From sequence record ON871820: DNA of 64,000 bases, one strand, 5' to 3'. Origin of the DNA: Escherichia phage vB_Eco-B1.1. Positions 60,071-60,382 of this stretch are shown piece by piece; position 1 is the first letter of the stretch; the number at the start of each line of letters is the position of its first letter. A model generated the notes under the pieces. The model saw only the letters and a program-made list of their open reading frames with translations. It ran no database searches and was not told the DNA's origin. The translations under genes were made by a program, and so were the position numbers.

Positions 60071-60238
60071 GAAACCGGGTCGCTACCGGTAAGTCGTCGG
60101 ACTGATGTTCCCTGTTTAAGGACTAGCATTAATAAATCTTTATGTTTTGTTAATGCCCCCTTATATCACAGCAGAAACGGCGCACCGAATTATCGATTCG
60201 AGGAAATATCTTTGCCATAAGCCGAGTAGCGTTTTTGA

Positions 60239-60330
60239 CGGAACGTTCGGATATGGTCGAGATATGGCCTTTTAAAAATATTGAGTAGCGTCAACTACTT
60301 AATAACCGGGTTCGAATCCCGGCGTTTCGT
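60239..60330 (+). ncRNA. tRNA-like stable RNA / pseudo-tRNA candidate
   Basis: 7-bp acceptor-like helix cggaacg/cgtttcg, variable-arm hairpin gtag-cgtcaa-ctac, canonical T-arm ccgggttcgaatcccgg; no clean anticodon arm found. Confidence 0.35.
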
Positions 60331-60382
60331 ACAAACACTTGCCTTAGCAGGTGGAACCCCGACAAGGTTGCCGCAAGGCTTA

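What the first reader, a model, noticed from the sequence alone, without database searches (positions are those of the whole stretch)
60071..60380. tRNA-like structured RNA region downstream of the tRNA array
A ~310-nt ORF-free stretch contains a textbook T-arm (ccggg-ttcgaat-cccgg) preceded by a variable-arm-like hairpin and closed by a 7-bp acceptor-like helix (60239-60245 with 60323-60329), but I cannot fit a proper D arm or anticodon arm. An upstream hairpin ccgg-gtcgcta-ccgg lies at 60075-60089. This may be a stable tRNA-like RNA (analogous to T4 species 1 and 2 RNAs) or a decayed tRNA.
Basis: seen in the sequence. Interest (0 to 1): 0.4.

Follow-up and report, generated by a model that had tools for sequence, protein, structure and literature searches.

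The report
T4 species 1 and 2 RNAs
The stretch holds this T4-like phage's copies of two long-known small stable RNAs (rnaD and the tRNA-like rnaC) made from the end of the tRNA operon, so it is a real but already described feature whose biological role is still unknown.

Summary
The region is real and already known. Window 60067-60186 is the orthologue of T4 rnaD (species 2 RNA). Window 60193-60331 is the orthologue of T4 rnaC (species 1 RNA, 98.6% identical). A conserved trailer and an intrinsic terminator (60382-60405) follow.

The proposed acceptor helix (60239-60245 with 60323-60329) is not the conserved one. In 24 distinct homologues from at least seven phage genera, the 3' strand pairs with the RNA's own 5' end (60194-60200).

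Covariation supports a four-way junction: a 7-bp acceptor stem with two conserved U·U mismatches, a long arm, a 10-bp hairpin and a canonical T arm. The loops of the long arm (UUGACG) and the hairpin (CGUCAA) are perfectly complementary in all 24 sequences, with two independent compensatory changes. That indicates a kissing-loop contact.

Outside T4-type phages, rnaC occupies a tRNA slot inside tRNA arrays, which points to excision by the tRNA-processing machinery. It is not a decoding tRNA, a tmRNA or a pseudogene.

The function remains unknown in the papers I could read. Novelty: already known. The pairing correction and the kissing loop are refinements I did not find in the searchable literature.

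The parts
60067..60186 (+). Orthologue of T4 rnaD (species 2 RNA, about 119-121 nt). The ends are mapped from the T4 and RB27 annotations and are good to about 2 nt.
   Evidence: Aligned to annotated rnaD of T4 and RB27. 735 phage records match. Consensus fold has 5 covarying pairs.
60074..60090 (+). rnaD 5' hairpin, (A)CCGG-GUCGCUA-CCGG(U).
   Evidence: The closing pair changes A-U to G-C in 4 of 15 sequences.
60093..60185 (+). rnaD closing helix GUCGUCG (60093-60099) with CGGCG-AC (60178-60185). It encloses inner helices and a variable apical hairpin (about 60126-60156) that occurs in three unrelated sequence versions among relatives.
   Evidence: MFE fold. The helix is invariant in 15 sequences, the inner pairs covary, and the middle segment is replaced in some relatives.
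60187..60192 (+). 6-nt spacer GAAUUA between rnaD and rnaC.
   Evidence: Conserved in 15 T4-type loci.
60193..60331 (+). Orthologue of T4 rnaC (species 1 RNA, 139 nt), the tRNA-like RNA.
   Evidence: 137 of 139 bases identical to T4 rnaC. Covariance model R1 scores it at 141 bits. Folding z-score -5.2.
60194..60200 (+). rnaC acceptor-stem 5' strand CGAUUCG. It pairs with 60323-60329, with two U·U mismatches in the middle.
   Evidence: Five pairs are paired in 24 of 24 sequences. A-U changes to G-C in a compensatory way. The two U·U positions become U-A and C-G in Yersinia phage TG1.
60202..60269 (+). rnaC long arm: irregular helices 60202-60203/60268-60269, 60206-60212/60259-60265, 60214-60219/60252-60257, 60222-60225/60247-60250 and 60229-60234/60241-60246.
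   Evidence: The same architecture appears in independent MFE folds of most of the 24 distinct homologues, although the arm has two unrelated sequence versions. 18 pairs change on both sides (helices 2 and 3).
60235..60240 (+). Apical loop UUGACG of the long arm, one partner of the kissing-loop contact.
   Evidence: Perfectly complementary to 60289-60294 in 24 of 24 distinct sequences. Compensatory changes occur in the Marfavirus type (UUGGCG/CGCCAA) and in Tegunavirus (UUGAUG/CAUCAA) (helix 4; also visible).
60279..60304 (+). 10-bp hairpin in the variable-arm position, with loop CGUCAA (60289-60294) as the other kissing partner.
   Evidence: 8 of 10 pairs covary.
60306..60322 (+). Canonical T arm CCGGG-UUCGAAU-CCCGG, directly abutting the acceptor 3' strand.
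   Evidence: 100% paired; CCGGG/CCCGG, CCUGG/CCAGG, CUUGG/CCAAG and CCAGG/CCUGG all occur.
60323..60331 (+). Acceptor 3' strand CGUUUCG (60323-60329) plus the 2-nt tail UA. The genome continues CAA.
   Evidence: The tail pattern U-N-C-A-A is conserved, and the Marfavirus type encodes UCCA.
60332..60381 (+). Conserved 3' trailer with small hairpins 60336-60342/60347-60353 and 60370-60372/60377-60379.
   Evidence: Nearly invariant in the 15 T4-type loci.
60382..60410 (+). Intrinsic terminator (10-bp stem, GAAA loop, U tract) that ends the tRNA/rnaD/rnaC transcription unit.
   Evidence: Annotated as a terminator in related records.

Best explanation
The interval holds the phage's orthologues of the two classical T4 'stable RNAs'. 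They are transcribed with the tRNA array 58687-59701 and end at the terminator 60382-60405. rnaD (60067-60186) is a structured RNA that is not tRNA-like. rnaC (60193-60331) is a tRNA mimic.

Shown here. rnaC's own 5' and 3' ends form a 7-bp acceptor-type stem that stacks directly on a canonical T arm. The D and anticodon arms are replaced by a long irregular arm and a 10-bp hairpin. The 6-nt loops of these two elements are complementary and covary, so the body is probably locked by a kissing-loop contact. An intermolecular version of that contact is not excluded.

Inferred. The acceptor/T-arm limb makes rnaC a substrate of the host tRNA-maturation enzymes. RNase P would cut at or next to 60193, which frees rnaC's 5' end and at the same time the 3' side of rnaD. 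3' exonucleases would then trim both RNAs back to 1-2 nt beyond their terminal helices. That matches the annotated T4 ends.

rnaC has no anticodon arm, and both free loops are engaged with each other, so it cannot decode. My committed guess for its role is weakly supported, at about 0.25. I think rnaC engages a tRNA-recognising protein through the acceptor/T-arm limb and acts as a decoy or titrator whose benefit depends on the host. No function has been demonstrated in the papers I could read.
For: Identity
- The region aligns base for base with annotated rnaD and rnaC of T4 and RB27.
- 743 phage records match, and several annotate rnaC/rnaD under the match.

Structure
- Most of the 24 distinct homologues fold independently into the same four-way junction.
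- On a MAFFT alignment not fitted to the structure, 84% of cells pair, against about 40% when the partners are slid. 31 of 54 pairs change on both sides. No shuffle out of 500 reaches the observed value on four of the five whole-structure measures.
- The kissing helix is paired in 24 of 24 sequences, with two independent double changes.

tRNA-type processing
- In Karamvirus, Gelderlandvirus and Moonvirus phages and in Erwinia phage COW86c, rnaC lies between two tRNA genes with spacers of 5-11 nt. Typically these are tRNA-Trp and tRNA-Gly.
- The annotated T4 3' ends fall 1-2 nt after the terminal helices.

Selection
- rnaC is 95% identical or more in 680 of 747 records.
- Mean pairwise identity in 15 T4-type loci is 98.6% for rnaC and 84.5% for rnaD.

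Expression and possible host effect, from papers on T4 and a relative
- Northern blot detection of RNAC, classed as a late RNA (PMC9697503).
- A convergent SNP in rnaD in all lines of a T4-like phage evolved on host ECOR34 (PMC12685909).
Against: - No expression data exist for this particular phage.
- RNase P cleavage, the exact ends and any CCA addition are inferred, not tested here.
- The classical T4 papers could not be read in the held library, so the T4 ends rest on GenBank annotation.
- The kissing contact rests on only two independent compensatory events. The long arm is about 26 bp against 10 bp for the hairpin, so it must bend sharply for an intramolecular contact.
- In this phage rnaD does not follow tRNA-Arg directly. 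A 116-aa ORF lies between them, so how rnaD's 5' end is made here is unknown.
Any function is therefore dispensable there.
- The decoy idea has no direct support.
Confidence: 0.85

Rival explanations
1. A decayed tRNA gene: a pseudogene left in the array with no function of its own.
For: ARAGORN and the Rfam tRNA model do not call it. It has a T arm and an acceptor stem but no D or anticodon arm. In other genera it occupies a tRNA slot, so descent from a tRNA gene is plausible.
Against: It is 95% identical or more in 680 of 747 records and much better conserved than the neighbouring rnaD. It is kept across at least seven genera. The non-tRNA arms covary, and the two loops stay complementary through double changes. 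T4 RNAC accumulates as a discrete RNA (PMC9697503).
Confidence: 0.04
2. A tRNA-like (tRNA-Sec-like) RNA of about 93 nt spanning 60238-60330, closed by the reader's helix 60239-60245/60323-60329.
For: The 7 bp can be drawn in T4-type sequences. Rfam's tRNA-Sec model aligns exactly this span (17 bits, E = 1.4).
Against: The score is far below the gathering score of 47. The helix has no compensatory change and is broken in most non-T4-type homologues. Its 5' strand lies inside a covarying hairpin and the kissing loop. The annotated T4 RNA starts 46 nt further upstream.
Confidence: 0.02
3. A purely cis-acting element: a 3' processing or stabilising module, or a terminator region of the tRNA operon, or a leader for the downstream gene, with no role as a free RNA.
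For: In T4-type phages it is the last element before the terminator. The trailer is conserved. Part of its value could be to provide RNase P entry sites.
Against: In Karamvirus, Gelderlandvirus and Moonvirus phages rnaC sits in the middle of the tRNA array with no terminator after it. The downstream gene differs between phages. Conservation extends to loops and junction strands that are not needed for cleavage.
Confidence: 0.08
4. Small protein-coding genes, as annotated ('hypothetical protein') in many GenBank records across this stretch.
For: ORFs of 42, 34 and 47 aa overlap the region. Many records annotate CDSs here.
Against: No reading frame is free of stop codons across the 24 homologues. 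Substitutions follow base-pairing, not codon structure. The ORFs on the RNA strand start with TTG.
Confidence: 0.01

Closest known systems
Bacteriophage T4 rnaC (species 1 RNA, 'band C'; GenBank misc_RNA T4s001)
   Same: Orthologous: 137 of 139 bases identical, same length, same position after rnaD and before the terminator at the end of the tRNA region.
   Different: Nothing of substance differs. The window copy has two substitutions. The pairing scheme and kissing loop derived here apply equally to T4.
Bacteriophage T4 rnaD (species 2 RNA; GenBank misc_RNA T4s002)
   Same: Orthologous: same conserved 5' and 3' blocks, same spacing to rnaC.
   Different: About 88% identical. The apical hairpin differs. 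In T4 it follows tRNA-Arg after 1 nt, whereas here a 116-aa ORF (59720-60070) lies between them and its stop codon overlaps the rnaD start.
tRNA-like domain of tmRNA (from my own knowledge)
   Same: An acceptor stem made from the 5' and 3' ends, stacked on a canonical T arm. A long helix leaves the junction where the anticodon stem would be. There is no anticodon.
   Different: rnaC has no mRNA-like reading frame or pseudoknot ring. It has no G3·U70 alanine identity pair (A-U or G-C instead). It has no encoded CCA in the T4 type. ARAGORN's tmRNA search and Rfam find nothing.
Class II tRNAs and tRNA-Sec
   Same: A 7-bp acceptor stem, a 5-bp T stem with a UUCGAAU loop, and a long hairpin directly 5' of the T arm like a long variable arm.
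   Different: rnaC has no D arm and no 7-nt anticodon loop. Tandem U·U mismatches sit in the acceptor stem. It scores below threshold with every Rfam tRNA model.
Bacterial Y RNA-like YrlA (tRNA-like module; from my own knowledge)
   Same: A non-decoding RNA that carries a tRNA-mimicking module and is handled by tRNA enzymes.
   Different: The topology differs. In YrlA the 5'/3' ends form the Ro-binding stem, not the acceptor stem. There is no Rfam hit even at E up to 10.

Membership tests
T4 rnaC (species 1 RNA) | Sequence homology over the full 139 nt to the annotated T4 RNA | tested here: met
   Window 60193-60331 aligns to T4 rnaC positions 1-139 with 2 differences. BLAST identity 98.6% to T4 records.
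T4 rnaC (species 1 RNA) | Position at the 3' end of the tRNA region, downstream of rnaD on the same strand as the tRNAs | tested here: met
   tRNAs 58687-59701, rnaD, rnaC and terminator all lie on the + strand.
T4 rnaC (species 1 RNA) | Accumulates as a discrete stable RNA of about 139 nt in infected cells | not testable with these tools
   Shown for T4 by Northern blot (PMC9697503). No data for this phage.
T4 rnaD (species 2 RNA) | Sequence homology to the annotated T4/RB27 rnaD, lying 5-6 nt upstream of rnaC | tested here: met
   Window 60067-60186 aligns to T4 rnaD positions 4-119 and RB27 rnaD positions 3-121. The 6-nt spacer is conserved.
Canonical tRNA | Cloverleaf with D arm and anticodon arm, recognised by tRNA detectors | tested here: not met
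   ARAGORN finds 11 tRNAs, none in 60067-60331. The Rfam tRNA model gives no hit at gathering score or at E up to 10. Covariation gives a long arm and a hairpin instead.
Canonical tRNA | 7-bp acceptor stem stacked on a 5-bp T stem with a T-loop of the UUCRANY type | tested here: met
   60194-60200/60323-60329 adjoins 60306-60322, with loop UUCGAAU. The acceptor stem carries two conserved U·U mismatches.
tRNA-Sec | Rfam RF01852 at or above the gathering score (47 bits) | tested here: not met
   17 bits, E = 1.4. The acceptor pairing it uses is not conserved.
tmRNA | tRNA-like domain plus tag reading frame and pseudoknots; alanine identity G3·U70 | tested here: not met
   No ARAGORN tmRNA and no Rfam tmRNA hit. 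The third acceptor pair is A-U or G-C in all 24 homologues.
RNase P substrate (acceptor/T-arm minihelix type) | Cleaved by RNase P at the 5' end of the acceptor stem | not testable with these tools
   Structural prerequisites are present, and placement in tRNA slots with 5-11 nt spacers fits.

The most novel reading that the evidence does not exclude
rnaC defines a conserved, so far uncurated RNA family of enterobacterial T4-like phages (no Rfam model exists). Its tRNA acceptor/T-arm limb is joined to a body closed by an intramolecular 6-bp kissing loop. In this reading the shape serves as a molecular decoy or cofactor for a tRNA-recognising host or phage protein, for example a tRNA-targeting defence nuclease or a maturation enzyme, and so affects host range. 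The neighbouring rnaD would act in the same host-dependent pathway.
Probability: 0.15. Interest if true: 0.65.

Novelty: already known. Interest (0 to 1): 0.25.

Why it matters
These two RNAs were sequenced in the 1970s (my recollection), and every paper I could read still lists them as 'function unknown' (PMC3014915, PMC9697503, PMC12685909). As a discovery the finding adds nothing, because it re-identifies rnaC and rnaD.

The follow-up does give concrete handles:
- A covariation-backed secondary structure with the correct acceptor pairing.
- A kissing-loop contact that can be broken and restored by design.
- The observation that rnaC is treated as a tRNA slot in several other phage genera while rnaD is confined to T4-type phages.

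It also flags an annotation problem. Hundreds of GenBank phage records carry 'hypothetical protein' CDSs over these RNAs, one even carries a tRNA-Lys call, and Rfam has no family for either RNA.

Tried and rejected
- Rfam at gathering score over the whole window, and at E up to 10 over 59950-60480. Only sub-threshold chance-level hits appeared (tRNA-Sec 17 bits, isrK, others).
- ARAGORN found no tRNA or tmRNA in the interval.
- The coding reading was rejected because stop codons occur in every frame somewhere in the family.
- A search for more divergent relatives added little. Two degenerate-pattern scans of IMG/VR gave 11 true non-T4-type loci plus GC-rich chance matches. One metagenome scan gave 2 true (Marfavirus-type) and 19 false matches. 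No kissing-loop variants beyond the two already found turned up.
- An exact-word scan for T4-type copies in IMG/VR gave only 6 loci.
- Literature searches for a function or a published structure of species 1 and 2 RNA found only 'unknown function' statements. Several hits were false because 'RNAcode' matches the term 'rnaC'. The T4 genome review (PMC150520) is not held.
- I considered whether TTGACG/CGTCAA could be promoter -35 boxes on the two DNA strands. I rejected this because there is no acceptable -10 box at the right spacing, and the covariation TTGGCG/CGCCAA fits RNA pairing rather than promoters.
- I considered pairing between the rnaD loop GUCGCUA and the UAGCG motifs of rnaC. Only 5 contiguous bp form, and the rnaC partners are buried in stems, so I did not pursue it.
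- Pfam gave nothing for the two flanking ORFs. PHROGs gave only unknown-function families.

Full report
**What is there.** The window is a T4-like (Tequatrovirus-type) phage genome. ARAGORN and Rfam find eleven tRNA genes at 58687-59701 on the + strand and nothing in 60071-60380. A megablast of 60060-60430 against GenBank phages matches 743 records. Most are 90-99% identical, and several annotate 'rnaC' and 'rnaD' under the match.

I fetched the annotated regions of RB27 and T4 and aligned them to the window. T4 rnaD (species 2 RNA, 119 nt) maps to window 60067-60186. T4 rnaC (species 1 RNA, 139 nt) maps to window 60193-60331 with two substitutions. A 6-nt spacer (GAAUUA) separates the two RNAs. 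After rnaC come a conserved 50-nt trailer and an intrinsic terminator at 60382-60405.

**Check of the observation.** The proposed acceptor helix, 60239-60245 with 60323-60329, can be drawn in this sequence. It is also what Rfam's tRNA-Sec model aligns, at 17 bits against a threshold of 47.

The stretch folds far better than shuffled sequence:
- rnaC: z = -5.2
- rnaD: z = -2.4
- 60060-60414: z = -6.2

No ORF of 60 aa or more overlaps the region. Three ORFs of 34-47 aa do.

**Relatives and the real structure of rnaC.** Distant BLAST searches found rnaC homologues well outside T4-type phages:
- Karamvirus
- Tegunavirus
- Gelderlandvirus
- Moonvirus
- Kanagawavirus
- Marfavirus
- Gaprivervirus (SP18, which carries a T4-type copy)
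- Edwardsiella, Erwinia and Citrobacter phages not assigned to a genus in their records (loci)

Pattern scans of IMG/VR and of metagenomes added a few more and no new lineage. In total I had 24 distinct sequences.

Folded one at a time, most of the 24 give the same architecture, even though the long arm exists in two unrelated sequence versions. In rnaC numbering (window coordinate = 60192 + i) the elements are:

| Element | rnaC positions |
|---|---|
| Acceptor-type stem | 2-8 with 131-137 |
| Long irregular arm | 10-77 |
| Hairpin | 87-96 with 103-112 |
| T arm | 114-118 with 126-130 |

I counted pairs on a plain MAFFT alignment (A4) that was not fitted to any structure. 84% of cells pair, against about 40% when the partners are slid by 1-3 columns. 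31 of 54 pairs change on both sides. No shuffle out of 500 reaches the observed value on four of the five whole-structure measures.

The acceptor stem has five pairs that are paired in all 24 sequences. One of them changes A-U to G-C in a compensatory way. Two central U·U mismatches are kept in 23 of 24 sequences and become U-A and C-G in Yersinia phage TG1.

No pair changes on both sides, and individual pairs are unpaired in 19, 15 and 7 of 24 sequences. That strand belongs to the apical hairpin of the long arm.

**A kissing loop.** The apical loop of the long arm (UUGACG, 60235-60240) is the exact reverse complement of the hairpin loop (CGUCAA, 60289-60294). All six pairs hold in all 24 distinct sequences.

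Two independent lineages carry double changes and none carries a half-changed state. The Marfavirus-type phages have UUGGCG/CGCCAA, and Tegunavirus has UUGAUG/CAUCAA (helix 4; also visible).

In a few homologues the thermodynamic fold pairs these segments directly (L031, L016, L018). This fits a loop-loop contact that locks the two non-tRNA arms together.

There are three caveats:
- The support is only two evolutionary events.
- The contact could be intermolecular.
- The long arm would need a sharp bend for an intramolecular contact.

I did not find this contact, or any published secondary structure, in the searchable literature. The 1970s-80s papers are not in the held library, so I cannot say it is undescribed.

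**Context that bears on mechanism.** In Karamvirus, Gelderlandvirus and Moonvirus phages and in Erwinia phage COW86c, rnaC lies between two tRNA genes, typically tRNA-Trp and tRNA-Gly. The spacers are 5-11 nt, the same spacing as between neighbouring tRNAs, and no rnaD lies upstream.

An acceptor stem stacked on a T arm is the minimal RNase P substrate (established knowledge from model-substrate work, cited from memory). The annotated T4 3' ends of rnaC (...CGUA) and rnaD (...CACC) fall 2 nt and 1 nt past their terminal helices, as expected from 3' exonuclease trimming.

The genome continues U-N-C-A-A after the rnaC acceptor stem, and only the Marfavirus type encodes a literal UCCA. Whether CCA is added could not be tested.

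My inference is that RNase P cleavage at the rnaC 5' end separates the two RNAs and exonucleases finish the ends.

**rnaD.** rnaD is confined to T4-type phages and close relatives such as Gaprivervirus SP18. It is far more variable than rnaC. Identity to the window copy is 76-99%. Mean pairwise identity among 15 loci is 84.5%, against 98.6% for rnaC.

Its 5' block (hairpin 60074-60090, then GUCGUCGGACUGAUGUUCCCUG) and its 3' block (AUCACAGCAGAAACGGCGCACC) are nearly invariant. The middle hairpin occurs in three unrelated versions. RNAalifold gives a closing helix 60093-60099/60178-60185 and five covarying pairs. rnaD is not tRNA-like.

**What it is not.**
- *Not a decoding tRNA, tRNA-Sec or tmRNA.* Detectors and Rfam models fail. 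There is no anticodon arm and no G3·U70 pair.
- *Not a pseudogene.* It is strongly conserved and its non-tRNA parts covary.
- *Not coding.* Every frame has stops somewhere in the family.
- *Not merely terminator-associated.* In other genera it sits mid-array.

A covariance model built from the 24 sequences finds exactly one copy in the window (141 bits). It scores all true homologues at 118-148 bits and none of the chance pattern matches.

[quoted passage not shown] The 2022 study detected RNAC by Northern blot and classed both as late RNAs. A 2025 evolution experiment with a T4-like phage found the same single SNP, inside rnaD, in all lines adapted to host ECOR34 (PMC12685909). That hints at a host-dependent effect.

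From memory only, species 1 RNA was sequenced by Paddock and Abelson in 1975, and deletions of the T4 tRNA region are viable on laboratory strains.

**Verdict.** The feature is the already known rnaD/rnaC pair, so novelty is nil and interest is low.

The refinements are the corrected acceptor pairing, the covarying kissing loop, the conserved tandem U·U mismatches, the tRNA-slot placement in other genera, and the absence of an Rfam family. They are modest additions, but they make an old orphan RNA experimentally tractable.

Noticed in passing
window 59720-60070: A 116-aa ORF (phrog_3355, unknown function, no Pfam hit) lies between tRNA-Arg and rnaD, and its TAA stop (60068-60070) overlaps the rnaD 5' end. 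T4 and RB27 lack it, so tRNA-Arg abuts rnaD there. SV76 (T2 type), CrRp10 and Lutter have it. Phages sutha and SP18 carry different ORFs at the same spot. The site looks like an insertion hot spot, and it leaves open how the rnaD 5' end is made in this phage.
   Followed up: partly
window 60382-60405 and 60920-60939 (flanking ORF 60448-60909): Two nearly identical terminators (AGCCCC..AAAGGTTGGGGCTTTTTGGTAT) bracket a 153-aa ORF (phrog_2280, unknown function). T4 lacks this ORF and RB27 has it. The arrangement looks like a gene cassette gained or lost by recombination between duplicated terminators.
   Followed up: partly
window 59432-59621: A 114-nt stretch without a tRNA (59432-59545) is followed by a tRNA-His. 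Both are absent from the corresponding place in RB27 and T4. The spacer was not examined further.
   Followed up: no
window 59266-59352: tRNA-Tyr scores only 30.2 bits with the Rfam tRNA model (gathering score 29), far below the other ten tRNAs (59-74 bits).
   Followed up: no
window 60332-60381: The 3' trailer after rnaC is almost invariant in 15 T4-type loci, including Gaprivervirus SP18. It folds into two small hairpins (CACUUGC-CUUA-GCAGGUG and GCC-GCAA-GGC). Its role, whether in processing or as part of a longer precursor, is unknown.
   Followed up: partly
window 60224-60232 and 60283-60291: The 9-mer GAGUAGCGU occurs twice in rnaC, each time running into one of the two kissing hairpins. 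In the fGh-Ecl04/KMB17 type the two hairpins are complementary over about 14 nt, so an extended duplex is possible as an alternative to the loop-loop contact.
   Followed up: no
related GenBank records (e.g. MK373787, MN044033 Marfa, MK327928): Many phage records annotate 'hypothetical protein' CDSs over rnaC/rnaD, and one annotates a tRNA-Lys. Rfam 15 has no family for either RNA.
   Followed up: partly
L036 806-944 and L043 722-860 (T4-type rnaC copies): Two natural T-loop variants occur, UUCAAGU and UUCAAAU instead of UUCGAAU. Position 57 stays a purine, as in genuine tRNAs.
   Followed up: no
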